From positions 34,658,001 through 34,722,000 of the forward strand of contig NC_135808.1 in the NCBI RefSeq assembly GCF_964213995.1: a stretch of 64,000 nt of DNA, in the 5' to 3' direction. The position numbers and the translations under genes are program-made. Below the pieces are notes generated by a model. It had not been told where the DNA came from. It was given only the letters and a program-made list of their open reading frames with translations, and did not search any database. Shown here in pieces: positions 601 through 62,170 of this stretch; the first letter of the stretch is position 1; every line of letters starts with the position of its first letter. Source of the stretch: Mustelus asterias. Its lineage: Eukaryota.

Positions 601-3506
601 CTACCTATAACCCTCAATCCTATTAACTCCCATGTACTCATCCAGAAGTCTCTTAAAAGACCCGATCGAGTTTGCCTCCACCACCACTGACGGCAGCCGA
701 TTCCACTCACCCACAACCCTCTGAGTGAAAAACTTACCCCTGACATCTCCTCTGTACCTACTCCCCAGCACCTTAAATCTGTGTCCTCTCGTAGCAACCA
801 TTTCAGCCCTGGGAAAAAGCCTCCGAGAATCCACTCGATCTATACCTCTCAACATCTTGTACACCTCTATCAGGTCACCTCTCATCCTTCGTCTCTCCAA
901 GGAGAAAAGACCGAGCTCCCTCAACCTATCCTCATAAGGCATGCTACCCAACCCAGGCAACATCCTTGTAAATCTTCTCTGCACCCTTTCAATAATTTCC
1001 ACATCCCTCCTGTAATGAGGCGACCAGAACTGAGCACAGTACTCTAAGTGGGGTCTGACGAGGGTCTTATATAGCTGCATCATTATCCCCGGACTCCTAA
1101 ACTTAATCCCTCGAATGATGAAAGCCAGCACACCATACGCCTTTTTAACCACCTCCTCTATCTGCAAGGCCGATTTAAGAGTCCTATGGACCCGGACCCC
1201 AAGGTCCTTCTGATCCTCCACACTGCTAAGAGTCTTACCCTTGATATTATACTCCTTCATCCCATTTGACCTGCCAAAATGGACTACTACACATTTATCC
1301 GGGTTGAAGTCCATCTGCCACTTCTCTGCCCAGTCTTGCATCCTATCTATGTCACACTGCAGCTTCTGACATCCCTCTAAACTATCCACAACACCACCAA
1401 CCTTCGTGTCGTCGGCAAACTTACCAACCCATCCCTCCAGTTCCTCATCCAGGTCATTTATAAAAATGACAAACAGCAAGGGTCCCAGAACAGATCCCTG
1501 GGGCACTCCACTGGTGACCGACCTCCATTCAGAAAAAGACCCATCTACAACCACTCTCTGCCTTCTGCAGGCAAGCCAGTTCTGGATCCGCAAGGCAACA
1601 GCCCCTTGGATCCCATGCCCTCTCACTTTCTCGAGAAGTCTTGCATGGGGGACCTTACCGAACACCTTGCTGAAGTCCATGTAAACCACATCTACTGCTT
1701 TTCCTTCGTCAATGTGTTTAGTCACATTATCAAAGAACTCCACCAGGCTCGTAAGGCACAATTTGCCTTTGACAAAGCCTTGCTGACTACTTTTGAGCAT
1801 ACTAAGCTTCTCTAAATGTTCATAAATCCTGTCCCTCAGGATCTTCTCCATCAACTTACCAACCACTGAGGTTAGACTCACCGGTCGATAATTTCCTAGG
1901 CTGTCCCTATTCCCTTTCTTGAATATAGGAACCACATCCGCAATCCTCCAATCCTCCAGAACCTCTCCCATCTCCATGGACGGCGCAAAGATCATCGCCA
2001 GAGGCTCTGCACTCTCTTCCCTCGCCTCCCACAGTAACCTGGGGTACATCCCATCCGGTCCCGGCGACTTATCTATCCTGATGCTATTCAAAATTTCCAT
2101 CACATCCTCTTTCTTACTGTCCACATACTCAATCTTTTCAGTCCACCGCAATCCTGTAGTACAACCACCCAGGTCTTTTTCCACCGTGAATACCGAGGTA
2201 AAATATTCATTAAGCACCTCTGCTATTTCTTCCGGTTCTGTACAGACTTTCTCACCTTCACATTTTATAGGTCCTATTCCTTCACATCTCATCCTTTTAC
2301 TCTTCACATATTTATAGAACACTTTAGGGTTCTCCTTAATCTTACCTGCCAAGGCCTTCTCGTGACCCCTTCTGGCTCTCCTAATTTCCTTCTTAAGTCC
2401 CTTCCTACAAACCGTACACTCATCTAGATCCCTATCATCGCCGAGCTCTCTGAACCTTTTGTACGCTTTCCTTTTCTTTTTGACTAGGTTCAGCACAGCT
2501 TTTGTGCGCCACGGTTCCCGTAACCTACCAAAACCTCCCTGTCTCATCGGAACGTTGTCATGCAGAACTCCAGACAAACATTCCTTGAAAATCTGCCACC
2601 TTACTTCGGTACTTTTCCTCGAGAATACCTCCTTCCAATTTATGCCTCTAATCTCCTGCCTGATGGCCTCATATTTCCCCTTACTCCAGATAAACACTTT
2701 CCCAGCTTGCCTGATCCTATCTCTTTCCAATGCTAGCGTAAAGGAGATAGAGTTATGATCACTATCCCCAAGATGCTCCCCCACTGAGAGATCCGACACC
2801 TGTCCAGGCTCATTAGCCAGTACCAGATCGGGTACAGCCTCTCCTCTTGTAGGCTTATCCACATGCTGTGTCAGGAAACCCTCCTGAACACACCTAACAA
2901 ACTCCTCCCCATCCAAACCCCTTACCCTAGGGATATTCCAATCGATGTTTGGGAAATTAAAGTCTCCCATCACGACAACCCTGTTATTACTACATCTCTC
3001 CAGGATCTGTTTCCCTATCTGCTCCTCAACATCCCTGTTACTATTGGGCGGCCTGTAGAAAACACCCAGCAAAGTTATCGACCCCTTTCCGCTCTGAACT
3101 TCCACCCACAGAGACTCCGTAGACAACCCCTCCACGGCGTCCACCTTCTCTGCAGCTGTGACACTATCCCTGATCAGCAGTGCCACTCGCCCCCTCCTTT
3201 GCCTCCCTCTCTGTCCTTTCTGAAACATCTGAAACCCGGCACCTGAAGTATCCAGTCCTGTCCCTGTCCCCAAGTCTCCGTAATGGCCACCACATCACAC
3301 TTCCAAGCATCGATCCACACTCTAAGCACATCCACTTTATTCACTACACTCCTGGCGTTAAAATAGACACATCTCAAACCTTTAGTCTGAGCTCTCCCCT
3401 TCTCCATCACCCGTCTATTCTCCCTCTTACACTGTCTACAATCCTTCTCTATTTGCGGGCTAACCTCCTCACTCTCAGTCACCTCATCACGATTCCCTCC
3501 CCCCAA
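601..3506 (-). pseudogene. CR1 ORF2 (APE endonuclease and reverse transcriptase), one frameshift near 3270
   Basis: YFNARS and VAITETW in the 3174-3506 frame; [21 protein letters not shown] and FADD in the 601-3273 frame. Confidence 0.92.
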
Positions 3507-9336: not shown

Positions 9337-12300
9337 ATAGAACATAGAACAGTACAGCACAGAACAGGCCCTTCGGCCCACGATGTTGTGCCGAGCTTTA
9401 TCTGAAACCAAGATCAAGCTATCCCACTCCCTATCATCCTGGTGTGCTCCATGTGCCTATCCAATAACCGCTTAAATGTTCCTAAAGTGTCGTGACTCCA
9501 CTATCACTGCAGGCAGTCCATTCCACACCCCAACCACTCTCTGCGTAAAGAACCTATCTCTGATATCCTTCCTGTATCTCCCACCACGAACCCTATAGTT
9601 ATGCCCCCTTGTAATAGCTCCATCCACCCGAGGAAATAGTCTTTGAACATTCACTCTATCTATCCCCTTCATCATTTTATAAACCTCTATTAAGTCTCCC
9701 CTCAGCCTCCTCCGCTCCAGAGAGAACAGCCCTAGCTCCCTCAACCTTTCCTCATAAGACCTACCCTCCAAACCAGGCAGCATCCTGGTAAATCTCCTCT
9801 GCACTCTTTCCAGCGCTTCCACATCCTTCTTATAGTGAGGTGACCAGAACTGCACACAATATTCCAAATGTGGTCTCACCAAGGTCCTGTACAGTTGCAG
9901 CATAACCCCACGGCTCTTAAACTCCAACCCCCTGTTAATAAAAGCTAACACACTATAGGCCTTCTTCACAGCTCTATGCATTTGAGTGGCAACCTTCAGA
10001 GATCTATGGATATGAACCCCAAGATCTCTCTGTTCCTCCACATTCTTCAGAACCCTACCTTTGACCCTGTAATTCACATTTAAATTAGTCCTACCAAAAT
10101 GAATCACCTCACATTTATCAGGGTTAAACTCCATTTGCCATTTTTCAGCCCAGCTTTGCATCCTATCTATGTCTCTTTGCAGCCTACAACAGCCCTCCAC
10201 CTCATCCACTACTCCACCTATCTTGGTGTCATCAGCAAATTTACTGATCCACCCTTCAGCCCCCTCCTCTAAGTCATTAATAAAAATCACAAAGAGCAGA
10301 GGACCAAGCACTGATCCCTGCGGCACTCCGCTAGCAACCTGCCTCCAATCTGAATATTTTCCATCCACCACCACCCTCTGTCTTCGATCAGACAGCCAGT
10401 TACCTATCCAATCGGCCAACTTTCCCTCTATCCCACACCTCCTCACTTTCATCATAAGCCGACCATGGGGGACCCTATCAAACGCCTTACTAAAATCCAT
10501 GTATATGACATCAACTGCCCTACCTTCATCAACACACTTTGTTACCTCCTCAAAAAATTCTATCAAATTTGTGAGGCACGACTTTCCCTTCACAAATCCG
10601 TGCTGACTATCCCGGATTAATCCGCATCTTTCTAAATGGTCGTAAATCCCATCTCTAAGGACCTTTACAATCAATTTACCAACCACCGAAGTGAGACTAA
10701 CCGGTCTATAATTACCAGGGTCATTTCTATTCCCTTTCTTAAACAGAGGAACAACATTCGCTATTCTCCAGTCCTCTGGCACCATCCCCGTGGACAGCGA
10801 GGACCCAAAGATAAAAGCCAAAGGCTCTGCAATCTCATCCCTTGCCTCCCAAAGAATCCTAGGATACATTTCATCAGGCCCAGGGGACTTATCGACCTTC
10901 AGTTTATTCAAAACTGCCAGGACATCCTCCCTCCGAACATCTATTTCCTCCAGCCTATTAGCCTGTAACACCTTCTCTTCCTCAAAAACATGGCCCCTCT
11001 CCTTGGTGAACACTGAAGAAAAGTATTCATTCATCACCTCGCCTATCTCTCCTGACTCCATACACAAGTTCCCACTACTGTCTTTGACCGGCCCTAACCT
11101 CACCCTGGTCATTCTTTTATTCCTCACATAAGAGTAAAAAGCCTTGGGGTTTTCCTTGATCTGACCCGCCAAGGACTTCTCGTGTCCCCTCCTAGCTCTC
11201 TTAAGCCCCTTTTTCAGCTCATTCCTTGCTAACTTGTAACCCTCAATCGAGCCATCTGAACCTTGTTTCCTCATCACTACATAAGCTTCCCTCTTCCTTT
11301 TCACAAGACATTCCACCTCTTTCGTGAACCATGGTTCCCTCACTCGGCCATTTCCTCCCTGCCTGACAGGGACATACCTATCAAGGACACACAGTATTTG
11401 TTCCTTGAAAAGGTTCCACTTTTCATTAGTTCCTTTCTCTGACAGTTTCTGTTCCCATCTTATGCCCCCTAATTCTTGCCTAATCACATCATAATTACCT
11501 CTCCCCCAATTGTAAACCTTGCCCTGCCGTACGGCCCTATCCCTCTCCATTGCAATAACAAAAGACACCGAATTGTGGTCACTATCTCCAAAGTGCTCTC
11601 CCACAACCAAATCTAACACTTGGCCCAGTTCATTTACCAGTACCAAATCCAATGTGGCCTCACCTCTTGTCGGCCTATCCACATATTGTGTCAGGAAACC
11701 CTCCTGCACACACTGCACATAAACTGCCCCATCCGAACTATTTGACCTACAAAGGTTCCAATCAATATTTGGAAAGTTAAAGTCCCCCATGACAACTAAC
11801 CTGTGACCCCCACACATATCCATAATCTGCTTAGCAATTTCTTCCTCCACATCTCTATTATTATTTGGGGGCCTATAGTAAACTCCTAACAACGTGACCG
11901 CTCCTTTCCTATTTCTAACCTCAGCCCATATTACCTCAGTGTGCAGATCCCCCTCGAAGTGCCTTTCCACAGCCGTTAAACTATCCTTGATTAACAATGC
12001 TACTCCTCCACCTCTTTTACCAGCTTCCCTACACTTAGTGAAACATCTATACCCCAAAACGTCCAACACCATTCCTGTCCTTGTTCTACCCACGTCTCCG
12101 TAATGGCCACAACATCGTAGTCCCAAGTACCAATCCACGCCCCAAGTTCATCTACCTTGTTTCGGATGCTCCTTGCATTGAAGTAGACACACTTCAACCC
12201 ACCTTCCTGTCTACCGGTACCCACCCTTGACCCTGATACCTTCCCCAATACCTCACCACCCTCACTGACTTCTGGACTACAACTCCTTTTCCCACTCCCC

Positions 12301-16144: not shown

Positions 16145-16460
16145 AGGACAGTAAGGTGGCACAGTGGTTAGTGCTGCTGCCTCACTGGGTTCAATTCCTG
16201 CTTGGGTCACTGTCTGTGTGGAGTTTGCACATTCTCCCCGTGTCTGCGTGGGTTTCCTCCGGGTGCTCCGGTTTCCTCCCACACTCCAAAGATGTGCGGG
16301 ATAGGTGGATTGACTATGCTAAAATTGCCACTTAGTGTCAGGGGGCCTAGCTAGGGTAAATGCATGGGGTTATGGGGATATGGCCTGGGTGGGACTGTGG
16401 TTGGTGCAGACTCGATGGGCCGAATGGCCTCCTTCTGCACTGTTGGATTCTATGATTCTG
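16145..16460 (+). mobile_element. HE1-like V-SINE directly upstream of the class II promoter
   Basis: tRNA-like head, V core, CR1-derived tail ending ATTCTATGATTCT. Confidence 0.85.
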
Positions 16461-16524
16461 TGACATTGCTGTCTCCCACTGACCTGCCTGCGCTGGGGAA
16501 GTTTAAATGAACCGCCCAATCCTG

Positions 16525-16568
16525 CCTGGCAACAGATGATGATAACTCCTATCCCCTTCTGATTGGTC
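16525..16568 (+). promoter_or_regulatory. MHC class II X box / Y box module (RFX and NF-Y sites)
   Basis: CCTGGCAACAGATG (13/14 to HLA-DRA X1 CCTAGCAACAGATG), a 20-bp spacer, then CTGATTGGTC (Y box); same spacing as HLA-DRA. Confidence 0.85.
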
Positions 16569-16903
16569 CCTTACTGACAGAGACAGAGTCTCGGTCTCAG
16601 TTTTGATTGGTCTGTTGGATCCAGGAGCGGAACCATTCTCTACTCTGATTGGTCCATATCAAACCGGGACCGGGTAACCACTCATACCCGCCTCTGATTG
16701 GATTGTTCTGTCCGCCATCCCGCCTGTGATTGGCTACCTGTTCCCAGCTCTGATTGGCTCCTCTGTCTCCCTGCCCGTGCTCTTGTTGCTGATTGGTCCC
16801 TGCTCCCTGGATGTATGGGTTTGATTGGGTGATTTCCCTGCTCCTTATTGGTCAGTGTGTTGCTATGTGATTGGTCAGTCTTCCTGCTCCGTTGTGATTG
16901 GTC
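16559..16903 (+). promoter_or_regulatory. Array of 11 same-orientation inverted CCAAT (Y-like) boxes
   Basis: ATTGG at 16562, 16606, 16648, 16697, 16729, 16753, 16792, 16824, 16847, 16870 and 16897; ten are in the context TGATTGG. Confidence 0.85.
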
Positions 16904-16913
16904 AGTGTCTGTG

Positions 16914-16948
16914 TTTAAAGCCTGGCGGGGCTCAGTCCCGGTTCAGTC
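16914..16948 (+). promoter_or_regulatory. TATA-like TTTAAA and initiator-like TCAGT (putative core promoter)
   Basis: TTTAAA at 16914-16919 with TCAGT about 29 nt downstream; ATG at 16973. Confidence 0.45.
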
Positions 16949-16972: not shown

Positions 16973-17075
16973 ATGTGTCTGTTCACAGCGACTGGCTCCC
17001 GCTCCCTGTGGATCCGGATCTCCCTCCTCATCTTGAGCCTGCTCATCTTCAATGGAGAGAGAGAGAGCGGAGCCG
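16973..17075 (+). CDS. mhc2b: MHC class II beta exon 1 (signal peptide [34 protein letters not shown])
   Basis: ATG just downstream of the X/Y-box promoter; hydrophobic core; donor CCG|GTAAG at 17076; phase 1 joins exon 2 in frame (G+GG = Gly). Confidence 0.9.
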
Positions 17076-20000
17076 GTAAGGACCCAGTTAGAGAGCGGGG
17101 AGGAGGGGGTCCGGAGCCGGTAAGGACCCAGTTAGAGAGCGGGGAGGAGGGGGTCCGGAGCCGGTAAGGACCCAGTTAGAGAGCGGGGCGGAGGGGGTCC
17201 GGAGCCGGTAAGAACCCAGTTAGAGAGCGGGGAGGAGGGGGTCCGGAGCCGGTAAGAACCCAGTTAGAGAGCGGGGAGGAGGGGGTCCGGAGCCGGTAAG
17301 GACCCAGTTAGAGAGCGGGGCGGAGGGGGTCCGGAGCCGGTAAGAACCCAGTTAGAGAGCGGGGCGGAGGGGGTCCGGAGCCGGTAAGAACCCAGTTAGA
17401 GAGCGGGGAGGAATAAAATAAGTGCCTTTCTCTTTAGATTTAAGTGTGCGATATGACTGGGAAGTTTGTAAATAAAACCGATCAGCCGCGTAGTGAAGAA
17501 TCAGTTTTACAGCACAGAAAGAGGTCCTTCGGCCCATCATGTCTGTCCCGGCCATCAAACACCAATCCACACATCTCAATATCCTGCACTTGTTCCTAGC
17601 TCTGGTCTTTCAATTGATCATCTAAATGCTGAGGTTCCCGTCTCCATCCTTTCAGTCGGTGAGTTCCAGATTCTCACCACCGGCTGGGTGGAAATGTTTT
17701 TTCTTCAAACAATGGTTCTATGTTCTAATGGTTAGCACTGCTGCCTCACAGCACCAGGGACCCAGGTTCAATTCTGGCCTTGAGTGACTGTGGAGTTTGC
17801 ATGCTTTCCCTGTGTGGGTTTTCTCTAGTTTCCTTCCACACTCCAAAGGTGTGTGGGTTTAGGTGGATTGGCCTTGATAAATTGCTCCTTGGGTGTAGCT
17901 TGGGGGGATTAGTAGGATAAATGTGTGGGATTGCATTGATGGGGTGGACCTGGGCAAGATGCTCTGTTGGAAAGTTGGTGCAGACTTGATGGCTCAAATG
18001 GCCTCCATCTGCATTGTAGTGATTCTATGAAATCTCCTCAATTCCCTGCCCCTTGCATCTATGCCTCCTGGTTATTGATCCCTCTAAGGGGGTGGGGGGT
18101 TAAATCTTATCTTTGCCCTTAACTTTCACTGAGGTCCCCCTAAGCCTTCTGTGCACTAAGGAAGACAATTTGAGCCTAACCAGCCCTTTATAGCTGGAAT
18201 GCTCCAGCCCAGGCAACATCCTGGTGAATCTCTGCTGTTTAGAGAATGTCAATAGTTTGAGTGGACAAGTATCTGGGGAGGGCAAATGGAGCAAGAGAAT
18301 AATCAATAACTGGGAAGATGTTGAGGAAATGAGACAAGATGCCAAGACAGGTGGACTGGTGTGAAGAAAGCATATGGAATTGGCCATGCTGGAGTTTTGT
18401 CCCCTTCTGGTCACCATGTTACAGGAAGGACATTAATGCTCTGGAGTGCAGAGGAGACTTATTGGAATTTGCCAGGGCTTGAATTTAAGCTGAGATTAGA
18501 TAGGCTGGGGTCATTTTCCTTAGCACAGGAGGTTGAGGGGTCTAGGCAGGATAGATAGACTTGTTTTCCTCCTATCTGAGGGGTCATTATCAGGAGCATA
18601 AATTAAAAGATGATTGGTAGTGATCATGAGGATTTCTTATGACTAATTATCAGCTGCTTCACAGCTCCAGGGACCTGGGTTTGATTCCTGTCTTGGGTCA
18701 CTGTCTGTGGAGTTTGCACATTCTCCTCGTGTCTGTGTGGGTTTCCTCCAGGTGCTCTGGTTTCCTCCCACAGTCCAAAGATGTGTGGGTTAGGTTGATT
18801 GGCCATGCTAAAAATTGCCCTTAGCGTCTTTATGTGTAGGTTAGAGGGATTAGTGGGTGGATATGGGGGTAGGGCCTGGGTGGGATTGTGGTCGGTGCAG
18901 ACTCGATGGGCTGAATGGCCTCTTTTGGTACTGTAGGCTTTCTATGATTTCTATGATTAATAGGGTGTCTGGAATTCACTGCCTAAATTGGTGGCTGAGA
19001 CTAACACTAAACTCATTTAAAAGGAACCTGGATCTGCATCTGAGGTACTGTAACCTGCAAGGCTATAGATGGATGTTGGAAGGTGGGATTAAAATGAATG
19101 ACTTGTTTTTTTACTTAACTGGTGTAGATAATGGGCTGAATGGCCCAGGCTAGAGCTTTATTTTGTTTGGGTACAGTGAGTGAGTGGAAAGGTTTTCACT
19201 CATTTCCAGCCAGTAAACTGAGGCTGCAGATTATTATATTTATGCAGCCTGGTGTTGGTGCTAGTTATTATCAGATATCATGATGCATGAGAATTGATCA
19301 CATCTCTCTGGACAAACTGCTACAGATGTTTGAAATACTACTCTGGACCTAAAAAGAGGGCAGCATCTGTGGAGTGGATGGTGTTTGGTCAATTTCTACA
19401 TGTTTAAAGTAGTGATAAAGGAATGGGATCAAGAGGTCAGAATGAAAATGAAGATCTGATCAGTTGAAAGGCAGAAGAAATTAGTGTGCAAGGAGGTAAT
19501 GAGGCAAGTGAAACAACAGTAAGAGCTCTGAATGAGAATGCAGAACCCCTCTTCACACACATGTCTCTATCTGCTTCAAGAAGATGACCATTATCCCAGT
19601 ACCCAAGAAAAGCCAAGCAGTGTGCCTTAATGACTCAGTGGCTCTGACATCCATGAAGTTCTTCAACAGGTTAGTCATGGCAAGAATCAATTCAAGCCTC
19701 ATGGATTGCCTGGATCCACTAAAGTTCACCTACCTCCACAACAGGCACCATCTCCCTGGCCCTGCACTCAACACCAATGGCAGACTCATATTTATTGACT
19801 ACATCTCAGCCTTCAACACCACTATTCTGATGAAGCTCAGCTCCTCCCTCTGACTGGATCCTGAGCTTCCTAATGCACAGACCCAATCAGTAAGGATGGG
19901 CAATAACACCACCTCCTCCATCCTCAACACTGGTGCTCCACAAGGCTGTGTTCTTGCTCCTTATACTCCTGATACACCTATGACTGGCCAAATTACTCGA

Positions 20001-23000
20001 CTTGATTTTCAAGTTTGCTGATAGCACAGTAGTGGGTCAGATCTCAAACAATGACAAGACTGAGTACAGGAATGAGAATCTGGTGACCGGGTGCAGCAAC
20101 AATCTCTCCCTCTGTCACCAAAATGAAGGAGATTGTTATTGACTTCAGGAAGCAGTGGAGAAGATGCCCCTGTCTACATCAATGGGGACAAAGCAGAAAT
20201 GGTCAAGAGCTTAATGTTTTTAGGTGTCCAGATCACCAACAATCTGTCCTGGTCCCTCCATACCAAAGCTATAGTTACAAAAGCCTACCAATACCTTTAC
20301 TTTTGCAGAAGACTAAGGAAATTTGGCATGTCAGCTAGTACTTGACTTTTACAGATACAACCAGAAAGAATGCTTTCTATGGCTACTGCTCTACACAAGA
20401 CAAACTAAAGGATTGTGAACAAAACCCAATCCATCACTCAAACCAGCCTCCCATCCATTGTCTCTGTCTACACTTCCTGATGCCTTGGGAAGGCAGCTAG
20501 CATAATTAAGGATGACATTCTTCCACTTGTTGGAAAAAGATACAAAAGTCTGACTCAAGAACAGCTTCTTCCCTGCTGCTGTCAGACTTTTGAATGGACT
20601 TGCCTTGCATTAAGTTAATCTTTCTCTACACCCTAGCTATGACCAACACTATCTGCTCTCCTCTTTTATGTCTAGTATGCTTTGTGTATATAGTGCAAGG
20701 AACATACTTTTTGCCAAACTAATACATGTGACAATAAATCATTAGTAGTCATGATCTGTTTTTGAACTCTATGGCAAGCTGAAATGCTGTTCCTCCAGCT
20801 TCACCACTCAGACCTTTGTCCTCCAACTCCTAAACTTGATGTGTTGTTGAAAGTCTGCATTTTGTATGCACACAAATTAAAGTACCTGTGTGCTTGTGAT
20901 TTATTCCCCTTTGTTTTTCCATTATACTCCTGATTACTTACCCATATTCTGTAGTGGCTGCAACAGTTGAATATTGCACTCCAGGAAATGGGCCACCCCA
21001 GCTTTTTACACATTACTGTGATTACTTTGGCATCACTGAACTTGCTCTGTTCTAAGTCCAAGGTAAGAAGTCCAACAGGTTTATTTGGTAGCAAAAGCCA
21101 CTAGCTTTCGGAACAGGCTGTCCCTTCATCAGGTGGGTGGGAGTGAGAACTGATGAAGGGACAGCCTGTTACAAAAGCTCGTGGCTTTTGCTACCAAATA
21201 AACCTGTTGGACTTTAATCTGGTGGTGTTAGAATTCTTGCTGTTTGCCACAGTCCAATGTTGGCATCTCCACATCATGACTCTGTCCAAGGGACAGACTT
21301 TAACATATCAGCTGCCAAGACAAACATCAGCTGTTCTGGGGAATCATTGACTCTGTGCAAGACACTTTGATCTGCCTGAAATTTGGTTCCTGATCAAGTA
21401 TTGCTGCTATTTAGCATATTCCAAGGCTCAGGACTACATGCTGAGGGAGGCACTAAAGCTTGGGGTAGCTGATCCCCAAGGTCCAGTGGGGAATGGCCAG
21501 AAGCTGGTAACTGGGTAAAACCATGCAGATTGTGCTTAATCCTAACCATACATAACTAAATTGAAGTGCCTTGAGTGCAACATGACTAATATAGTTTGAG
21601 CAGTATTCTACTGTGTAGTACCTCAAGTGTGTATCTTGATCTATGGAGGAAATGTGAATGTCATTACACTTTAGAAAGACATTTCCAATTGTAACAATAT
21701 TCATGAAATCTGAAAGAAACAACATGTATTGCAAAAATCTGCTGCAGAATTGGTTTGACCATCATTGCTATTGGGGACCCTGATATAGGGCTGAGGACAA
21801 AAACCTACATTACCAACTGTCTTTCATTCTTTGTCCTTGCAATAGATTCAAAGTCAGTTGGGAGCATTGATTGTCCTGTTTATCACCACCCCATTCTTTC
21901 TGTGCACTGGTCCTGAATCCCTCCCCTGATCTCTGGATCTCATGGATAAAATGTACTCCCTTGACCCCATTTCCCTTCAACTGCTGATCACCTAACCTCT
22001 CATCCTAGCTCCCTAATGTTAGATGACATTGTATTCACTTTTCAACCATTCCTTGTCCTCAAAATGCCCTCCACTCTAGTCATTAACCCTTCCATCACCA
22101 ACCTCCCCTTCCCCTCGTCATTGCACATGTTGAGTCCCGAACTCGTGCTCACCTTGTTTAAATCTAACCTTCCCAGCACACAGCAAATAACAGCTGAGGT
22201 CCCCTACTGACCTGTCGGCAGCTTTTGACCAGTTCACCACGCCCTCGAGGAAAGCCAATATGTTCATCTGGGGTTATGGCGACTATCTTTCACTGACCAC
22301 CCCATCCTTTAACACTCTGCTGTCATCACTGGGACTGTCCTCCACTCAGTTTCTCTTTCAGCCTATGGGAAATCGTAGCTTAAACATCTGTCATGGCTGA
22401 TTTAGTGTTTCATCGTCACCTTGAGTTCCACATGTCCAGGCAGTGCTGTGGCTGGGGTAGGGGAGTGACCCCACAGCTGTCCTGACCCTCTCTACACAGG
22501 GTCAGGGTGTGATCTACTGGAGATTACTGTCACAATGTGGGGTTTCCCGGAGGGGAGTGGGTCTGGGACCCGCACCCCTTCCCCATGTTGTTGTGATGGG
22601 GCTGGGCGGGCAGGAGGTGGAAAGATTCCCCATTCCTGGGTGGCTCTGGTCACTGGGCTGTCTGTCGGGCAGTAACTCGGTCTCTCTCTCTCACAGGGGC
22701 TCATGTCGGGAACTTCATTCACGGATGTGAGTTTAACGACACCGGGGTCTGGACCTATATTGAGCAGTATGTCTATGACCAAGAGCTGCTCGCGTATTTC
22801 GACTTTAACCCGAGGAAGTACATCGCGGTGAAGGACGGGATGGAAAGGACTGTGAAGACATGGAATAAAGAGTTAGCGGAAGCGACCTACCAGCAAGCGC
22901 TCACCATATGTCACACCAACATTGACATCGACGAAAGTGAGGTGCTGCCCCGGAGAGGTGAGAGCCCCGGGGGGGAGGGGGTTAAATGCCATCAGCGGCC

Positions 23001-35000: not shown

Positions 35001-38000
35001 GGCACAATGTAGAGAGACCACATTGGGAGAACCAAATACTGTCACTAAATTGTAGAAGGTGCAAGTGAAATGTTGCTTAACCTGAAGTGTTTGGGTCCAT
35101 GTGCACTGAGGCAAAAGGGCAGGTGTTTCACCTTCTGCAATTACATGGGATGGGGAGTTGTGGGTGATGTCAGAACAATCCCTGTGGAATGCTGATCAGG
35201 AGGACAGTGGGAAGAAATACTTTGTAGTGGCATGTTGGAGTTGGCAGAGAATGATCCTTTGAATGTGGAGACTGGTGGGGTGGATGAGGGGGCCCTATCA
35301 TCCTTCTGGGAGGAGGGGAGAGGTGCAGGAAATGGGTCAAACCCAGTTGAGTGCCCTGTCAACTACAGGTAGGGGAGGATTATCAGTTAAGGTAAAAAGC
35401 AGATGTCAGAAGTGCCATTTTCAAAGGTGGCATCATCAGAGTAGATGTGGTGGAGGTGGTCCACATAAACAAAAGGACAGGCATAATAGGGGCTCATGCA
35501 AGTACATCTTTGCCAGACCTGAGTTTTTTCAGTGTTTTTGCTTATTTTTTTATGCTTGTTTTATGGTGTTACCTATGCCTGTCTTTGGCAAATAGAGCTC
35601 TTTTAGGGAGTATACACTGATTTTATCAACTTTTTTGAACACTTCTCCAGAACTGTTCCTTTTTTACCCATTTAATATTCTTGCCCAGTTTATTATGTCT
35701 CTAATTGAAGTTCGTCTTGCCTAAATCTAGGATCTTGGTCACTGTTTCATATTTTTCCCCTTCAAACATTGAACTTGATCAGATAAATATACCATCAGGC
35801 TATCATTACATTTGACATTTTACTGAAGGGCATGATGAGCTAGTGCCCGGCCACTCTGATATTTTGTGATGCAGCCAGCCAGTTACTTGAATATCAAAAA
35901 TTACCCCTTGGTTCCTGCTTCAGGTGTCACCATTTCCAGTTTACATGAGATTCTTAATCAAGTTTGAGCCATTTGGCATGATGACAAATGGACCAATCGC
36001 AAAAAGTTGCCAGAAACCACGACCAATAGGAGGCCTGGTATCTCATTTCACTACTTCCATTCGTCTTACTGAAGCCACCACTTGGTAAAGGTGTTTCCAC
36101 TCTTCAGGGCAACACTCTTCTCTGTGGATCTGTGTTCCAATTCCACAACTTGCCAATCTTGCCTGATTCGAAGGCCAGAACATGTAGAAAAGGACTTGAG
36201 TGAAGGTCTTCCAAAACTCTCCACAAATAGTAACAAGGCTCAAGGAAAATCAGACACTTGCTGCCATTATACTATGTTCTTTATTTCTAAATTGACTCTT
36301 CTGTTTCTATTCCAGTCAAACCAACAGTCACTGTCCGACCTAAAACAATGCCACATTCTGGAAAGTCAGCCCTGCTCTTGTGTCATGTTACTGGATTTTA
36401 CCCTCCTGAGATTGAGGTCACATGGCTGAAAAATGGAGTGCCGGTTCCCGATGGTGTCATCAACACTGCCCTGTTATCAGATGGTGACTGGACCTATCAG
36501 GTGCAGGATCTCCTCCAGTATCAGCCTGTGTCTGGGGATAAATATACCTGTCATGTGGAACACAGCAGCCTGAATGAACCCAAGAAAACAGACTGGGGTA
36601 AGAACATAATGTATGGAGTACAACTTGAAATAAAGCAAAATTCTGGAAACACTGAGCAGGTGTCAGAATCTGTGGGGAGAGAAATAGTTTACATTTCGGG
36701 CTAATCTGTCAGTTCTAGCAGTTATTGCTGCAAGCAGTGAACAAAAGGCAGCCCCAGAACAGATCCTGAGAGGAACCACTACCTAGCATCACTTTGTAAT
36801 AAATTGGCTATGCCTTGCTGTAAATTTCCTCCAGTGAGGAGCCTTGTCAAGGGTTCTCTGGTCTGTCCATTTTTACCCTAACCTTTGGGTTTCTCTACCT
36901 GTTCAATTTTGGTGTGCTTCTAATCACTTAGTCTTTTCATTCTATTGTACCATCTTTCCAAAATCTGTCACTTTTTTTACTATTCTTGTTCTGGAATGAC
37001 CATTATTGGACTCGAGGTGCTAACCAGACTTTACTCATCATTAGCTCTAGCAGTCTCCTTTTATAGATGTCACATGTTGTAGAAGGAATCCTACATATTA
37101 GAAATTGAACTTCCTTGTCACTGATATAACAAATCTAGCTTTCCTGCTTTATTCACAATAGATTACCACTTATCCTGCTTTGTCACTGCACACCTTTGTA
37201 CTATAAATTCCTCCAACTGAACTGCCCTCAAAAGCCTTTTATCCCTAAAACCTTCTAAACACATCATGCCACCATTTTAATACAATTTTTGTTAGTTTAA
37301 GAAGTTTACAAGGAAGATCTTAAGCTGTTTCTCTTTTATTGGTCCCTACTTACCTCTGTCTTCCCTTACTGGGAATTTTTTTACTTCTCCCCAGCTTTTG
37401 CCTCCATTTTTGTACAAGTGCACAGGGACTTTTGTCTTCAACTTCGTGGTCGGCATCTCCAATTCCCAAAGAACCTGGGATCTCCTGTGCATGTGTCAGC
37501 CAGGCAAGGGCTACACAAGGTACTCTGTTTAATGTTGGTAATCCAAACTGCATGTGCCTGCTGGAAAAGTCACATGCATGCTTCTGATTTTTTACATCAG
37601 TTAGGCTACACGCATGGTTTTGGGCCTATTCCCAGCCAGTGCATGTGTGGGAGGCTCAAGGTTCAGCAGGATTTGGAGATGCCAACCACAGCTGAAAACT
37701 AATTGGATTTATTTCATTTACATTAATGTTAATTTTTAATCATTGGTGTGCTGTGAAGGCCCCACAATGTGCTGCTGCACACCAGTTGGAACCTTTAAGC
37801 TTCCTCCTAAACTCCTTTCACATAAGTTGATCATTCCAGAGCTTGATAGTCATGTGACTACCCTCCAGCTCTGTTTGAGAATGCTGTCAAGTTCAATAGA
37901 ACACCCTGTGCTGCTCTAACACCTGGATTGTTTCTCATGTACAGAAGTGGGAAGCACAACTGAATCAGAGAAACACAAGATCATTGTTGGAGCTGTGGGA

Positions 38001-41000
38001 TTTGGAATTGGGCTGATCATCCTGCTGGCTGGAGTGATTATGAAGCTGAGGAATGCTAAAGGTAAGATTCTGTTCAGTGAGCACAAAACCCCTACCCTCA
38101 GGATGTGACTCTGGGTAGTCTGATTTCATAGAAGGCTCTACAAAAGAAAGATCAGGATGATGGCTGGGAACATCCAAATATTTTAAGCCTTCCTGGCTTC
38201 CAACCTAAAGTTGACATGTTAACCTTGCTTGTGGTAACAATCCTTGTATTGGGAGTCAGCTAGTTTGAGTCTTGGTGCAATGTGAGGGAAGAAACTAATC
38301 AAAACCGGAGCAATTTCACTGGGAAACTTTTATTGAAGGCAACACCACAGGCAGGAAATTCCTTCCCTCTGAACAAATTTCTTACTAAAGTAGTTGGTGG
38401 AATCATTGGATATTTCCAAATTGTCCTTCTGGAGCTGAATATGTAATAGTAACAGCGGTTAATGCAGTGCTGATTTTTCCACAATTATAAAAGGTGGCTT
38501 GAGTTAACCTGCTATCAAAGCACAGGAACAGGCCCTTCAGCCCACCAAATCCATGCTGACAGATGCCTGATCTAATTTTTTTGCCTGTGGTCCATAATCC
38601 CTCTATTCCCTGCCTCTTCACATATGTATCCAGTTACCTCTGTAATGTTTAGCTACATCCCATAGTAGCTTGTCAAACCCAATGAACAAGGCCTCACTTT
38701 AAAAAAAAATTGGTGTAACAAATCAAAACATTATATTGGCAATTTAAAGTGATTTTTTTTAAAATTTGAGGTGTAATTTGCCTGTTAATGTTTTGGGTTT
38801 AATTGTTATGGCTGTAGAAAATTGTGGAAGACTACAAGCTCTTGCTCCCACCCCTCACAATAAATGTCATCAAGAGTAGATGGAACTATTCCCACTGAAA
38901 GGATCAAGAACTAAAGGTCACAAGTGCACACTCTGCACTATAGGCACATGTATTCTATACATTTAAAATTAAGTTGAGCTACATTAAATTGCAATGTAAC
39001 CAGATATTTATTTTAAATATTGTAGACAAGTGTTACAGGTTCTGTCAGTATCTCGGTGAAATGAGGGATTGAGAACAGACAACCAAACAAGTTCAAAGCT
39101 GATAATGTGCAGGGGAAGTGAGACCCTGAATTCCATATAGCATTGTGTTGTGGGTTTGTCTGTGGTTGGCGGGGGGGGAATGTTGCTGACATGTGAATTT
39201 GACTATGCTGAACACCACTAGAACTGAAACTTTGGCTTTCAGGCACTGAGTTAGCAATGCAGCGAGCGAAGCTGTGACTGTCTGAAGGGACATTGGGCTT
39301 GAGTGAAGTAATTGTCCACATCAGGGCTGTGGAACTTGAGACCTGTTTCCAGAATCTTAAAGTGCAGAAGGAGGTCATTCAGCCCATTGTGTCTGCATTG
39401 GCACTCTGAACAATTCACTTCTCCTGCCTTCTTTATCGTCATATTACAGCACAGAGGCCCTTTGGCCCACATGACGCACTGGCCATCAAGTACCAGTCTA
39501 TTTTATAGTTCCTTTTGAATACTTTGATTAAACCTGTTTTCACAACTCCATGCATTCTAGACCATAACCAATTAATGCATGATTTTTTTCTCTTCGCTTT
39601 TGCTGCTTTTTGTCAATTACTTTAAACTTGTGACCTTTAGTTCTTGATCCTTTCAGTGGGAATAGTTCCATCTACTCTTGATGACATTTATTGTGAGGGG
39701 TGGGAGCAAGTGCTTGTAGTCTTCCACAATTTTCTACAGCCATAACAATTAAACCTAAAACATTAACAGGCAAATCACACAAATTTTTAAAAATCACTAA
39801 ATTGCCAATATAATGTTTTGGTTTGTTATTGCTAAATTGAGACCTTTGTTGGTTGTTTGACAAGCTACTATGGGATCTAGCTAAACATTGCAGAGGCCAC
39901 TGGATAGATACATGAATAGGCAGGGAATAGAGGGCTATAGACCGTGCAGAGGCAAGAAAATATTAGAGGCATCTGTCAGCACAGACTTGGGGGGGCTGAA
40001 GGGCCTGTTCCTATGCTGTACTGTTCTTTGATAGCAGGTTAACTCCAACAATCTTTTATTATGGTGGAAAATTCAGCACTGCTCAATTTATCTGGCTGAC
40101 CTCATCCTGGTCAATGCTCCTCAGACAAGTTTTCATATATTATCTGGATAACACTTGCTCCAAGTTTGATCCAAATCTGAACTTGTAGTCTTTCACAACC
40201 ACTGTCTCAAAACATTTACAGTCGATGAAATCTATTGTAATGTAGGAAACCGGACAAAATTTATAAACCACAAACTCCCAGATGGGCAATGCTATAGAAC
40301 CATAACATTGTAGCACAGAAACAGGCCTTTTGGCCCTTGGCAGTGCTGAACCATTTTTCTGCCTAGTCCCACTGAACTGCACCTGGACCATATCCCTCCA
40401 CACCCCTCATCCATGTACCTGTCCAAGTTTTTCTTAAATGTTAAGTGAGCCCGCATTCACCACTTCATCTGGCAGCTTATTCCACACCCACCACTCTGTA
40501 GAAGCCCCCCTAATATTCCCTTAAACTTTTCCCCCTTCACCCTTAACCCATGTCCACTAGTTGTTTTTCTCCCCTAGCCTCAATGGGAAAAGCCTACTTG
40601 CATTCAGTCTACCTATACCCATAATTTTATACACCTCTATCAAATCTACACTCCAGAGAATAAAGTCTGAACCTATTCAACCTTTCTCTGTAACTCAGTC
40701 TCAAGACCCAGCAACATCCTTGTCAACCTTCTCTGCACTCTTTCAACCTTATTAATATCCTTCCTGTAATTGGGTGACCAAAACTGCACACAATACTCTA
40801 AATTCGGCCTCACCAATGTCTTATACAACCTCACCATAACATTCCAACTCCTATACTCATTTATAAAGGCCAATGTACCAAAAGCACTCTTTACAACCCT
40901 ATCTACCTGTGACACTTTTAGGGAATTATGTATCTGTATTCCCAGATCCCTCTGTTCTACTGCACTCTTCAGTGTCCTACCATTTACCTTGTATGTTCTA

Positions 41001-44000: not shown

Positions 44001-47000
44001 TCCAAACCAGGAATGACTGTCCTGCTTGTCACCATTGTGTATTAACCTCTGATCAAGTCTGAGAATAAGATGTAAACCCACAACCTTCTGACTTGGTGAA
44101 CTAACCATGTTTGTTGTTTTCTTTCAGCCATCCTGGATTCCAGCAATCACGGCCCACGTAAGTATTTCAGCAAATAACTATTTCAAATCTGTTGTGGATT
44201 TCTATCACTGCATTGACAGCTAGAATTACCCAGCTCAGATACAGCAGTTTGGACAGAGTAAAGCTTCCTCTGCACTGATTAGGAATTGGATTCAGAATGT
44301 CCCAAACTCCAGTGTTGGTGAAAGCCAGTTTTTATCAAGATTTATGGGGTTCACTTGTTTACAATAACCCCACCAATCATAAATCGGATCAGGTTCTAGA
44401 GACATAACCACATGACAAGAACACTTTAAATGGTGAATTCAGGAAGTTTATTCACTTAAAAATAAGTCCGAATTTAAAAAGCAAAGTATCAGAAGAGAAA
44501 GCTCTAACAATTGAATAAACTTCTCTCCATCCTTAGAGCAAGTAATATATTGACAACATTGAAAACAGCTCTCAGCACCTCAAATATTGTCTTCCCATCT
44601 CCTTCTGTCTGCCCCCTCTTCCTGTCCCTCTCCCCATGTGGGAGCAAACCCACACACTGGGAGAACATGCAAACTCCACAAACAGTGGCCCAAACTGGGA
44701 ATCAAACCCAGGTCCCTGGTGCTGAGGCAGCAGTGCTAACCACTATGCCACCCCACTGTATGAAAGACCATGCCTCTCTCGGTAGGCTGAGGGAGTATAG
44801 CTCAGTGGTAAAGCAATTTGACTATGTGGAATAGTGACAGTGGTTAGACTGGTGCCTCTCGGCACCAGGGAGCCAGGTTTGATTCTGGCCTTGGGTGTCT
44901 GTCTTGTAGCACTTGCACATTCTCTCCATGGGTTTCCTCTAGTGCAAAAATGTGCAGGTTGGTGGATTGACCATGCTACGTTGCCCCTTAGTGTGGGATA
45001 GGGCAGGGGGTGGGCCTGGATAAGGTGCTGAGTTGGTGCAGATTTGATGGGTTGAATGGCCCCCTTCTGCACAGTGGGGATTCTGTCATGGCCAATAAGT
45101 GATTTACTTGGCTGTCATTGGGAGTTGAGGTCCTGCAGACCTATTCAGCCACCCTCTTAGTCAAGGTTAACACATTGTTGCTTTTGTCTGTTGCCTGAGC
45201 ATTTTCAGACTAATTAATAAAACATTTGTGTTCCAAATAACATTTCCAGGCTTTCTAACTTGAATTACTTTGTGTCGCAATTAAGTTATCTACTTGACTT
45301 ATCTAGCTGGTTTCCAATAATGGTTTGTTTTTATTAATGGCTTCCATCAATTTTAGCAGAAAATGCTGAAGAACCTAGTGATTCAAACTGCAAAATGATC
45401 ACACTGAAACTACCAACAGTCCCCAGGTTGAGGGTGAAATATTGTCAATTTATTGATCCCTCGCTATCCAATTCACCCTTGTGGGTTTCACTTGGGCCTC
45501 AGAATTTATTTCTAGTCCAAATCCATTGAATTTGTAGCCTCCTGTGAAGACAAATAACAGGATGAACAGAACAACAATTGTGGTCATTTGTATGAGCACA
45601 AAGATGGTGGAAATGGGTCTTAACCAGGCTGTTCACTTGCATTAAAAACAGTTGCCATGTTGTTGCATAGTTATATAACATCTGTGAAATTGCCAAATTC
45701 GTCTAGTCAGTCTCTTGGGATGCTGGCATTGGTCCTGGGGCTTCCATCCCTGTTGGCTAGATGTTAATTCTTGGAAAAGGCAGGATGTGAAGAGTCAGGA
45801 CATCTGTAAATAAAGTGCAGTAGTTACTCTTTAGTTAATTGACTAATACTGTCCCATTTATTTTCTCTGCTTTCTCTTTTGCCTTTCATGGTGGCAACAT
45901 GTTTGCCCACATTGGGGTAATCTGTACACTACTTTGTTCCCTTTCTCCACCACTTCAGAAGATTATGGATGGTGAGGTAAAGCTTGTGTGATTCCAAGGA
46001 ATTTTTGCAATTAAGTGAAAATGTTTCTGGGGTGAAATGTGACCCTCGGCACTATCAATCTGTAGTAATTGTCCCCACCTACAGATTACCTCAATCAATA
46101 CCCAGTCCTCCTTAAAGCTGCAACCAATTTCATACTCCACATTACTTCCTAACCTTCCATCCCAATTCAAAATTCATTGAACTTTAATGTTCATCTAGCA
46201 GTATTGATACTTCAGTTGCGAGCAATTAAAGAACTAACTTCACAAAGTGAACCAAAGATAAAGATTTAATAAAGAAACTTCATTGCACCAACACAGGCCA
46301 CACAAAGCTCCCCACAATTCCCACCTGCTTTCTTTATATACTGGATCAGCTGGTCCCTCAATGTAACTAATAGTTACATGTTAACACTTTGACTCCGAGC
46401 AGTATCTTTGTTTTAAAGTCAGCTTCTCTATGAAGTAGGTGTCAATGCCTCTAATTTAAGGATGTTTCATGCTGGTTGAAGTAGTTATACATGACTGAGA
46501 CCTATTTTTAATGTGACTGAATACAAGATCAAGTGTAGTATCAATGTGCTGCACTTGTTTGAAGTCATGAGATTACACTGAGGCTTCATTTGAAGCAATT
46601 TAAAGCAGCATCTTGGCCTTTTGGTTAAGATGCAAATGAGATCAAGCCTTGGAGGTGCTATGCCTGCTCCAATCAGCTTGGATCATGTAGATCAAGCCCA
46701 AGATGGTGAGGCCTGGATTGGGAATGCCTCACTGGCTGAGACTCTGAATTGGACTTTGATTGGATTGAATTGGATATATAAACAAAAAACATTTGCCTGA
46801 ATATCTCCTGATCTTTGAACCAGCTGATTTCCCATATTCTCATTTTGATTTATTGTCAATGTATTAACAAAGTCATTCTTGCACACATGCCATTCATAGG
46901 GAAGGAAATGAGAGAGTGCAGAATGTAGTGTTAGTCATAGCTAGGGTGTAGAGAAAGATCAACTTAATGCAAGGTAAGTTCATTCAAAAGTCTGACAGCA

Positions 47001-60879: not shown

Positions 60880-62170
60880 AAGATAGATCCTTTGGAGAGG
60901 AGCACTGAGTTTCTGCTAAAGATGCTTCATCCATGGTCAAATAGGAAAGAGTGGAGCCAAGTGGGGACAGACCATTGAGCAGATCAGCAGGGAGGTGTTG
61001 GAGAAGGATGGTGTTAGAGCAGGATGGTGTTGGAGCATCAGGATGGTGTTTGGCATAGTTTACTATGCCAAAGGCTGGATTTGAGGAGGGATAGTGCACC
61101 CTGATCGCAATCACAGAGGATGATCTTTATGATGTTGATGTGGACTGTTTCAGTACTGTGGTAGGAGCAGAAATCTGGTTGGGGTGGGGGGGGTGGATTC
61201 AAATAGGCAGTTGAAGAAAAGATGATGATGATTGATTTAGGAAGTGACAACACGTTGAGTGATCGTGGCAAGAAAAAGAGATTTGAGATGGTGCAGTGGT
61301 TTGCAAGGTCAAGAAAAGTTGGGTTTTGTGAAGAGGAGGGTGAATACTGCAGACGTGACGGGGGGTAGAATTATTCACACTTTCAGTTAACATGGAACCA
61401 GGTAAGGAAATTAGATGGTCAGCAGTCAGATGGGAAAGGGGTTGAGTGAACAAGGAATGGGTTTCTCAGACAAGATGAAGTTGGGGAAGAAATTAGATGA
61501 AATAAGAGAGAAACGAGAGAAAGNNNNNNNNNNNNNNNNNNNNNNNNNNNNNNNNNNNNNNNNNNNNNNNNNNNNNNNNNNNNNNNNNNNNNNNNNNNNN
61601 NNNNNNNNNNNNNNNNNNNNNNNNNNNNNNNNNNNNNNNNNNNNNNNNNNNNNNNNNNNNNNNNNNNNNNNNNNNNNNNNNNNNNNNNNNNNNNNNNNNN
61701 NNNNNNNNNNNNNNNNNNNNNNNAAAGATATTCAGTGCCTACCCTTATTCCCCATGTCAATCCTGAAGTGATTAATAGGTCGGGTGTTAAAGAGTGAGGC
61801 CCACAGGAGAGATGGGGTCCAACAACATCTGGTGATGATGGTTAAACCAGTCCTGTACCAGACATGCTCAAATGTGCAGTCTGAAACGTCAATGCACAGA
61901 TATCAGAGCCATACCCAAGTAGGAAGAGAGCAAAGGTTAGACAGATTAACAACGACGGAAATATTGATAGAGGGTGAAAAGTTGAGAGTTGAACCTTATT
62001 CGTGCTGTTGTAAGAGATTCGGGGGAAGCTTTTTTCTTGGGGTAGGTGTAGAAGGCAGTGGGTTGGACAAGATTGTGAAGAATGTAATGAAGTGGTTAGA
62101 GAGTGCATCATCTGTAAGTGTCGAGGTGTCACAGGACAGACAACTTCAAGAGGGTTGTCATGAATATGGA
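60880..62170 (-). mobile_element. Degraded L2-like LINE fragments flanking the gap
   Basis: FCSYHSTETVHINIIKIILCDCDQG, resembling the L2 GFRxxHSTETAL motif. Confidence 0.45.
61524..61723. other. Assembly gap (200 N)
   Basis: Run of N. Confidence 1.

What the first reader, a model, noticed from the sequence alone, without database searches (positions are those of the whole stretch)
16516..16948. Shark class II promoter: DRA-like X-Y module followed by ten extra, co-oriented Y boxes
Seen: CCTGGCAACAGATG, 20 bp, CTGATTGG, nearly the human HLA-DRA X1-Y geometry. Ten more ATTGG follow on the same strand (spacings 44, 42, 49, 32, 24, 39, 32, 23, 23, 27 bp) with largely dissimilar spacers, so this is not a recent tandem repeat. 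Known: mammalian class II promoters carry one Y box, within roughly 100 bp of the TSS, in the RFX/CREB/NF-Y enhanceosome that recruits CIITA. Inference: here the X-Y module sits about 380 bp from the putative TSS with an NF-Y polymer between. That could be a distinct promoter design giving a nucleosome-free region or partly CIITA-independent expression.
Basis: partly seen in the sequence, partly recalled or inferred. Interest (0 to 1): 0.78.

Follow-up and report, generated by a model that had tools for sequence, protein, structure and literature searches.

The report
Shark MHC promoter with CCAAT array
The promoter of a shark immune gene (MHC class II beta) has the mammalian-type control module about 400 bases upstream of its likely start site, followed by ten extra CCAAT boxes; the six that could be tested are spared by mutation in related copies and likely hold the chromatin open across the gap.

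Summary
Observation confirmed: eleven co-oriented ATTGG at exactly the stated spacings (shuffle mean 0.65, maximum 5 in 5000), behind an RFX-type X1 box and a 20-bp spacer. The gene is an intact class II BETA gene (exon 1 ATG 16973), not alpha. None of 49 variable positions falls in the 30 core bases of extra boxes 2-7 (5.2 expected, P about 0.002); spacers drift by substitutions and 1-2 bp indels. No multi-copy element covers the array at 80% or more identity. In human cells, moving the S-Y module 80-150 bp from the start site cripples HLA-DRA (PMC2677874), so the array likely extends the nucleosome-free region from the distant X-Y module to a TATA-like/Inr core. It likely arose by old tandem duplication; unchecked scan notes describe CCAAT repeat promoters at other shark genes, so it need not be class II-specific. 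No S box at the mammalian distance. Start site, NF-Y binding and CIITA independence are untested. New variant of a known kind.

The parts
16145..16464 (.). Dispersed repeat (SINE-sized) that bounds the promoter upstream; not part of the module
   Evidence: about 300-bp matches at 76-83% to at least four other places in the window; SINE identity is inferred
16516..16520 (-). Twelfth CCAAT pentamer, opposite orientation, 5 bp upstream of X1; weaker NF-Y match (7/10)
16525..16538 (+). X1 box (RFX-type), 13/14 to the recalled HLA-DRA X1
   Evidence: (only match within 2 mismatches in the window); no listed change in 16531-16538 in any laid copy
16537..16543 (+). X2 position: TGATG in this copy; the second copy, X5 and X7 all read C at 16540, which gives the CRE half-site TGACG
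16539..16558 (+). 20-bp X-Y spacer, 7 of 20 positions variable; length kept in the second copy and X7, 18 bp in a low-depth X5 contig
16559..16568 (+). Canonical Y box (inverted CCAAT, 10/10 match)
16606..16901 (+). Ten extra co-oriented ATTGG boxes (16606, 16648, 16697, 16729, 16753, 16792, 16824, 16847, 16870, 16897)
16688..16724 (+). Three CCGCC GC-box-like pentamers between boxes (16688, 16712, 16720); the latter two carry changes in the second copy
16914..16919 (+). TATA-like TTTAAA, 12 bp after the last box
   Evidence: no listed change in X7; role inferred
16943..16947 (+). Inr-like TCAGT; its A (16945) lies 31 bp from the TTTAAA start: predicted start site
   Evidence: predicted, not mapped
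16973..17075 (+). Coding part of exon 1 (leader) of the class II beta gene
   Evidence: 35/35 aa to P0001
17068..17412 (+). Young 44-bp minisatellite (7.8 copies, 97% matches) repeating the exon 1 splice donor
22697..22957 (+). Exon 2, beta-1 peptide-binding domain
   Evidence: PF00969, 23.2 bits, cut-off 20.9
36316..36597 (+). Exon 3, beta-2 C1-set domain
   Evidence: PF07654, E 6.9e-25
37945..38061 (+). Exon 4, connecting peptide and transmembrane
44128..44157 (+). Exon 5, cytoplasmic tail part (last exon not located)

Best explanation
This is the promoter of an intact shark MHC class II beta gene in which an X1-X2-Y module lies about 390-420 bp upstream of a predicted TATA/Inr start site, and the gap is filled by ten extra conserved CCAAT boxes that likely bind NF-Y side by side and would keep the whole stretch free of nucleosomes. 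Shown: the gene, the motifs, their excess over chance, and selective sparing of boxes 2-7 while spacers drift. Inferred: RFX, CREB and NF-Y assemble on X1-X2-Y and recruit CIITA as in mammals; the NF-Y array carries the open region to the core promoter and so fixes the start site downstream, solving the distance problem that cripples HLA-DRA when its S-Y module is moved 80-150 bp away; the array grew by old tandem duplication of a 23-45 bp Y-box unit, after which only the cores were kept. Cell-type and interferon control most likely still comes from CIITA; the array would add openness and some basal activity.
For: Gene identity. Excess of boxes. Conservation: second copy in runs X1 and X3 (49 changes, 4 gaps in 350 bp), X7 (45 changes, 1 gap in 606 bp), X5 (9 changes, 2 gaps in 232 bp). 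In 16569-16819, 0 of 49 variable positions lie in the 30 core bases of boxes 2-7 (base-stratified expectation 5.2, P 0.002); P 0.003 without changes on this copy's own branch; P 0.009 for the second copy alone; 0 of 250 circular shifts of the 45 listed positions give zero hits. All 10 spacings are 23 bp or more (P 1.6e-4 under random placement) and several match the 24, 31 and 41-43 bp classes of human double CCAAT sites (PMC4982600 passages, PMC4889920 section 14). X-Y spacer keeps its length but not its sequence, as in mammals (PMC4381081 passages). Mechanistic precedent: PMC2677874 section 19; bioRxiv 10.1101/369389 passages (NF-Y maintains the nucleosome-depleted region and start-site choice).
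Against: No binding, chromatin or reporter data. Start site not mapped. X7 alone gives only P about 0.05. The compared copies are close (86-96% identical), so depth across sharks is unknown. Boxes 9-11 could not be fully tested: 4 of 30 X7 differences in 16500-16935 were not listed, and by kind up to 2 could touch a core. Regular spacing also follows from tandem duplication alone. Spacings shift by 1-2 bp between copies (45, 33, 22 in the second copy; 24 in X7) and helical phasing is weak (Rayleigh p about 0.02 at 10.5 bp, above 0.1 at five of seven periods tried). No S box at the mammalian distance; this copy's X2 is degenerate; X5 shows an 18-bp X-Y spacer in one contig of depth 3.6.
Confidence: 0.6

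Rival explanations
1. The CCAAT array plus GC boxes and TATA-like element is a self-sufficient, housekeeping-type promoter, and the X-Y module acts only as a nearby inducible enhancer (like the mammalian distal S'-Y' modules), so the gene is partly expressed without CIITA.
For: Multi-CCAAT platforms are enriched in active promoters (PMC4889920 section 14); distal SXY modules work as enhancers (PMC7866136 passage); class II transcripts come from many tissues in cartilaginous fish (PMC8010645 passage); no canonical S box and a degenerate X2 in this copy.
Against: PMC8010645 itself attributes the broad signal, as likely but unproven, to infiltrating leukocytes; the mammalian SXY complex including NF-Y is inert without CIITA (PMC7866136 passage); the listed changes spare X1 and Y and two of three copies keep the 20-bp spacer.
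Confidence: 0.2
2. The extra boxes mainly multiply docking for the class II machinery (RFX tethered to paired NF-Y, extra CIITA contacts) or bind other CCAAT/Y-box factors such as the repressor YB-1, tuning level rather than chromatin reach.
For: RFX5 co-binds double CCAAT sites without its own motif (PMC4889920); three RFX half-site-like words lie just before boxes 6, 7 and 10 (16740, 16785, 16859); YB-1 repression through the Y box is reported (PMC2191494, listing and abstract start only).
Against: The half-site-like words at 16740 and 16785 carry changes in the second copy or X7 (16740, 16745, 16786); their orientation and distance differ from the functional X-Y geometry (PMC4381081 passages).
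Confidence: 0.12
3. A neutral, decayed minisatellite or LTR/transposon remnant that happens to carry ATTGG and merely pushed the X-Y module away.
For: Residual unit likeness; a young minisatellite lies 170 bp downstream; LTR12 elements carry 24- and 41-bp CCAAT repeats (PMC4982600 passages); short high-depth contigs resemble 37-46 bp pieces of the array at about 84%.
Against: Cores spared while spacers diverge (P 0.002-0.009); only two long versions in the own species and one in X7; no second copy in the window.
Confidence: 0.08

Closest known systems
Mammalian MHC class II S-X-X2-Y promoter module (RFX, CREB, NF-Y, CIITA; PMC7866136, PMC4381081, PMC2677874)
   Same: X1 box, CRE half-site position, Y box, fixed-length variable spacer, same order and orientation, upstream of a class II gene
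   Different: About 390 bp from the predicted start instead of 50-100 bp; ten further co-oriented Y boxes; no S box found at about 16 bp upstream of X
Double/multiple CCAAT NF-Y platforms of human promoters (24-28, 31-37, 43 bp classes; PMC4889920, PMC4982600)
   Same: Direct-repeat orientation, spacings in the same range, GC boxes between sites
   Different: Eleven sites in a row rather than two or a few; attached to a tissue-restricted immune module
LTR12/ERV9 CCAAT repeats (PMC4982600, PMC4889920)
   Same: Many co-oriented CCAAT at about 24 and 41 bp
   Different: Not dispersed: no multi-copy element covers the array at 80% or more identity in the runs laid; no LTR features tested
CCAAT minisatellite promoters of other cartilaginous-fish genes (unchecked scan notes e1-9277519, e1-9806141, e1-9360954, e1-9339848)
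   Same: Promoter built from repeated CCAAT modules, cores reported as better kept than spacers
   Different: Those have a recognisable period; this array is aperiodic and sits behind an X-Y module; no shared sequence words found
CD74 (invariant chain) promoter: upstream S-X-Y plus proximal GC box and CCAAT (recalled; searches found no paper to check it)
   Same: Split design with a distant X-Y and proximal NF-Y/Sp1 sites
   Different: One proximal CCAAT as recalled, against ten here

Membership tests
MHC class II beta gene | beta-1 domain, C1-set beta-2 domain, transmembrane exon, intact frame and splice sites | tested here: met
   P0001 is 100% identical over the 86-aa query and labelled class II beta by its source
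Elasmobranch DBB lineage | Lineage-specific beta-2 residues / tree placement | tested here: inconclusive
   published lineage primers match 13/20 and 10/20 (DBB) versus 12/20 and 11/20 (DAB); no tree built
S-X-Y module | X1 box | tested here: met
   13/14 to the recalled HLA-DRA X1; the listing counts that string once in PMC2191754, but the held text did not show it
S-X-Y module | X2 (CRE-like) box overlapping the 3' end of X1 | tested here: inconclusive
   TGATG in this copy, TGACG in the second copy, X5 and X7
S-X-Y module | Y box at fixed distance (20-22 bp for NLRC5 modules, PMC4374748; length kept, sequence free, PMC4381081) | tested here: met
   20 bp here, in the second copy and in X7; 18 bp in one low-depth X5 contig
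S-X-Y module | S/W box about 16 bp upstream of X | tested here: not met
   that position reads TTTAAAT; compared by eye with a recalled consensus, so a divergent shark S box is not excluded
S-X-Y module | Position 50-100 bp upstream of the start site (PMC2677874) | tested here: inconclusive
   Y lies 414 bp before the ATG and 386 bp before the predicted start; the start is not mapped
S-X-Y module | RFX/CREB/NF-Y binding and CIITA dependence | not testable with these tools
   needs EMSA, ChIP, reporters
Multi-CCAAT NF-Y platform | Co-oriented sites matching the extended NF-Y motif, spaced by at least one footprint, conserved above flanks | tested here: met
   (boxes 1-8; boxes 9-11 only partly testable)
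Multi-CCAAT NF-Y platform | NF-Y occupancy in vivo | not testable with these tools
   no ChIP data
LTR / dispersed repeat | Many genomic copies | tested here: not met
   2 long versions in X1 and X3, 1 in X7 at 80% or more identity; none elsewhere in the window; no repeat library or whole genome was available
Recent minisatellite | Periodic, similar units | tested here: not met
   no TRF call at score 30 or more

The most novel reading that the evidence does not exclude
Shark class II beta genes use a two-part promoter: a 450-million-year-old CIITA module plus an NF-Y polymer that keeps the gene poised or transcribed without CIITA, which would explain broad class II transcription in cartilaginous fish and make CCAAT amplification a lineage-wide way of uncoupling enhanceosome position from start-site choice.
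Probability: 0.2. Interest if true: 0.7.

Novelty: new variant of a known kind. Interest (0 to 1): 0.46.

Why it matters
Mammalian class II promoters are the textbook case of rigid geometry, and moving the module 80-150 bp breaks HLA-DRA. A natural class II gene from the oldest lineage with MHC that places the module about 390 bp away and fills the gap with conserved NF-Y sites is a ready test of whether NF-Y alone can extend a nucleosome-free region and set the start site, and of how old strict CIITA dependence is. My five shark- or class II promoter-directed searches listed no description of a shark class II promoter, and term look-ups found no 'promoter' in PMC8010645, PMC10751288 or PMC4219347; older subscription papers on nurse shark class II genes and all supplements were not seen. 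Both parts are known kinds, so the gain is moderate.

Tried and rejected
No whole genome is held, so no genome-wide count of CCAAT arrays and no alpha-gene promoter comparison. Run search: no RNA holder listed; no inference drawn. Two high-depth runs (X11 kind unknown, X12 RNA by guess) cover only 16945 and 16953 onward, but they stop at different places with loose ends and contigs cannot show a start: not used as evidence for the start site. X10 covers only 16822-16935. Helical phasing: weak and period-dependent, not claimed. Lineage assignment by published primers: inconclusive. Relaxed scan for further X-Y modules in the window: 6 other hits, none with a full TGATTGG plus a good X; rejected. 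Look-ups of earlier findings by sequence or relatives were empty. Searches for the CD74 promoter layout gave no usable paper. PMC2118753 and PMC2191754 were held only as abstract and references. No tool reached more distant sharks, rays or chimaeras at DNA level; P0003 (whale shark label) is protein only.

Full report
Observation. Eleven pentamers compare with a mean of 0.65 and a maximum of 5 in 5000 dinucleotide shuffles of the same 433 bp, and with at most 4 in any other 340-bp stretch of the window. Ten of eleven are TGATTGG; 10 of the window's 30 such heptamers (both strands) lie here. A twelfth, reversed pentamer lies at 16516. Tandem Repeats Finder calls nothing in the array, but short unit families remain.

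The gene. An ATG at 16973 opens a leader exon; further exons lie at 22697-22957, 36316-36597, 37945-38061 and 44128-44157. Exon 2 matches PF00969 (class II beta) above its cut-off and exon 3 PF07654. The homologue search (longer proteins only; 3 hits among 19 candidates) returned P0001 at 100%, labelled class II beta-like, Mustelus asterias, a paralogue P0002 at 77% with the same species label, and P0003 at 56% labelled whale shark. So this is a beta-chain promoter. Lineage (DAB or DBB of PMC8010645) stayed open by primer match.

Core promoter. TTTAAA at 16914 and TCAGT at 16943-16947 put a predicted start at 16945, 31 bp from the TATA-like word, 28 bp before the ATG, 386 bp from the first Y box and 420 bp from X1. 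This is a prediction from sequence. A dispersed repeat ends at about 16464, 60 bp upstream of X1.

Conservation test. No genome is held, so I used contigs of public runs (7 of 13 listed runs laid). Runs X1 and X3 (organism A, two samples of one study; one may be the source of the window) each hold two versions of 16500-16849: one identical to the window and one with 49 changes and 4 gaps; both join one shared contig from 16820 on. The divergent version is most simply the promoter of P0002 with a homogenised proximal part (inferred; an old allele is not excluded). X7 (organism C) spans the whole 606 bp in one contig of depth 2.6 with 45 changes and 1 gap, 37 listed; within 16500-16935 it has 30, of which 26 are listed; the 4 unlisted most likely lie in 16843-16906, where other contigs dilute them. 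X5 (organism B) covers 16488-16719 with 9 changes, 7 listed, and two one-base deletions in the X-Y spacer. Result: in 16569-16819 none of 49 variable positions (45 listed plus the 4 C changes) lies in the 30 core bases of extra boxes 2-7; expectation 5.2 after stratifying by base, P 0.002. Dropping changes on the window copy's own branch gives P 0.003; the second copy alone P 0.009; X7 alone about 0.05; none of 250 circular shifts gives zero hits. One change touches the 7-mer (16791 in X7). Box 8 has no listed change in X7; boxes 9-11 are not fully testable. The X-Y spacer varies at 7 of 20 positions while its length is kept in the second copy and X7, the pattern reported for mammals (PMC4381081, passages). 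All three other copies read C at 16540, which gives a CRE half-site at the X2 position that this copy has lost. No S box is recognisable about 16 bp upstream of X (recalled consensus).

Repeat origin. At 80% or more identity only these one or two long versions cover the array, and the window has no second copy, so it is not a dispersed element by this test; no repeat library was available. Short high-depth contigs match 37-46 bp pieces at about 84%; one continues into another GATTGG, which points to a separate CCAAT tandem repeat elsewhere in these genomes. Unchecked scan notes describe CCAAT repeat promoters at TSC22D4, HPF1, WRN/PURG and a zinc-finger gene in cartilaginous fishes, a class II alpha promoter 131 kb upstream called ordinary, and distal X-Y modules. 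These are leads, not support; they suggest that CCAAT amplification is a general habit of these genomes, and they lower the claim of a class II-specific invention. The 44-bp minisatellite at 17068-17412 shows that local tandem duplication is active here.

Mechanism. All human class II genes have the S-Y module 50-100 bp from the start; inserting 80 or 150 bp leaves RFX and CIITA binding intact but moves the start out of the nucleosome-free region, reduces induction and shifts initiation upstream (PMC2677874, section 19 read whole, other passages). NF-Y keeps promoter regions nucleosome-depleted and fixes start-site choice (bioRxiv 10.1101/369389, abstract start and passages). Human double CCAAT sites cluster at 24-28, 35-37 and 43 bp (PMC4889920, section 14 read whole) or 24, 31, 41, 51 bp (PMC4982600, passages). 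The shark spacings are all 23 bp or more, so all sites could be occupied at once (inferred); strict phasing is not supported. The most likely reading is therefore a CIITA module at the far end and an NF-Y bridge to the core promoter (0.6). A self-sufficient CCAAT promoter with partial CIITA independence is the main rival (0.2): the mammalian complex is inert without CIITA (PMC7866136, passages), and the broad tissue signal in cartilaginous fish is attributed by its authors, unproven, to leukocytes (PMC8010645, passages).

What is known. [quoted passage not shown] Searches listed no paper describing a shark class II promoter or a Y-box array in any class II gene; PMC8010645, PMC10751288 and PMC4219347 have no occurrence of 'promoter' in the held main text. 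Subscription papers on nurse shark class II genes and all supplements were not seen and may hold such a description. The CD74 comparison, the X1, S-box and NF-Y consensus words, and the 450-million-year age are recalled.

Verdict. A real, selectively kept feature and a new variant of two known kinds (S-X-Y module; multi-CCAAT platform). It works like a class II enhanceosome promoter but is not filed as a canonical S-X-Y proximal promoter, because the S box was not found and the position is likely far off. Interest 0.46; 0.7 if partial CIITA independence were shown (probability 0.2).

Noticed in passing
window 17068-17412: 44-bp minisatellite (7.8 copies, 97% matches) that repeats the last bases of exon 1 with its splice donor: eight GT donors at 17076, 17120 ... 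17384.
   Followed up: partly
window 16820-16935, runs X1 and X3: The two promoter versions are 86% identical upstream but share one contig from 16820 on, which suggests recent gene conversion of the proximal promoter and leader between the two beta copies.
   Followed up: partly
window 16540: This copy has T where the second copy and two related organisms have C, losing a CRE half-site at the X2 position; the two paralogues may differ in strength.
   Followed up: partly
window 16747-16783, contigs of X1, X3, X10: Short contigs (depth 246, 111, 5) match 37 bp with 6 differences and run on into another GATTGG, pointing to an unrelated CCAAT tandem repeat of about 32-bp period elsewhere in these genomes.
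   Followed up: no
window 16502-16520: A reversed CCAAT with TTTAAA 8 bp beyond it mirrors the downstream box-plus-TTTAAA end of the array; possible weak upstream antisense start.
   Followed up: no
window 601-3294, 9472-12147 (minus) and many fragments: Long reverse-transcriptase-type ORFs (897 and 891 aa) and many LINE fragments fill the flanks and introns; the gene spans more than 27 kb. Family not tested.
   Followed up: no
window 61524-61723: 200-base assembly gap (N run).
   Followed up: no
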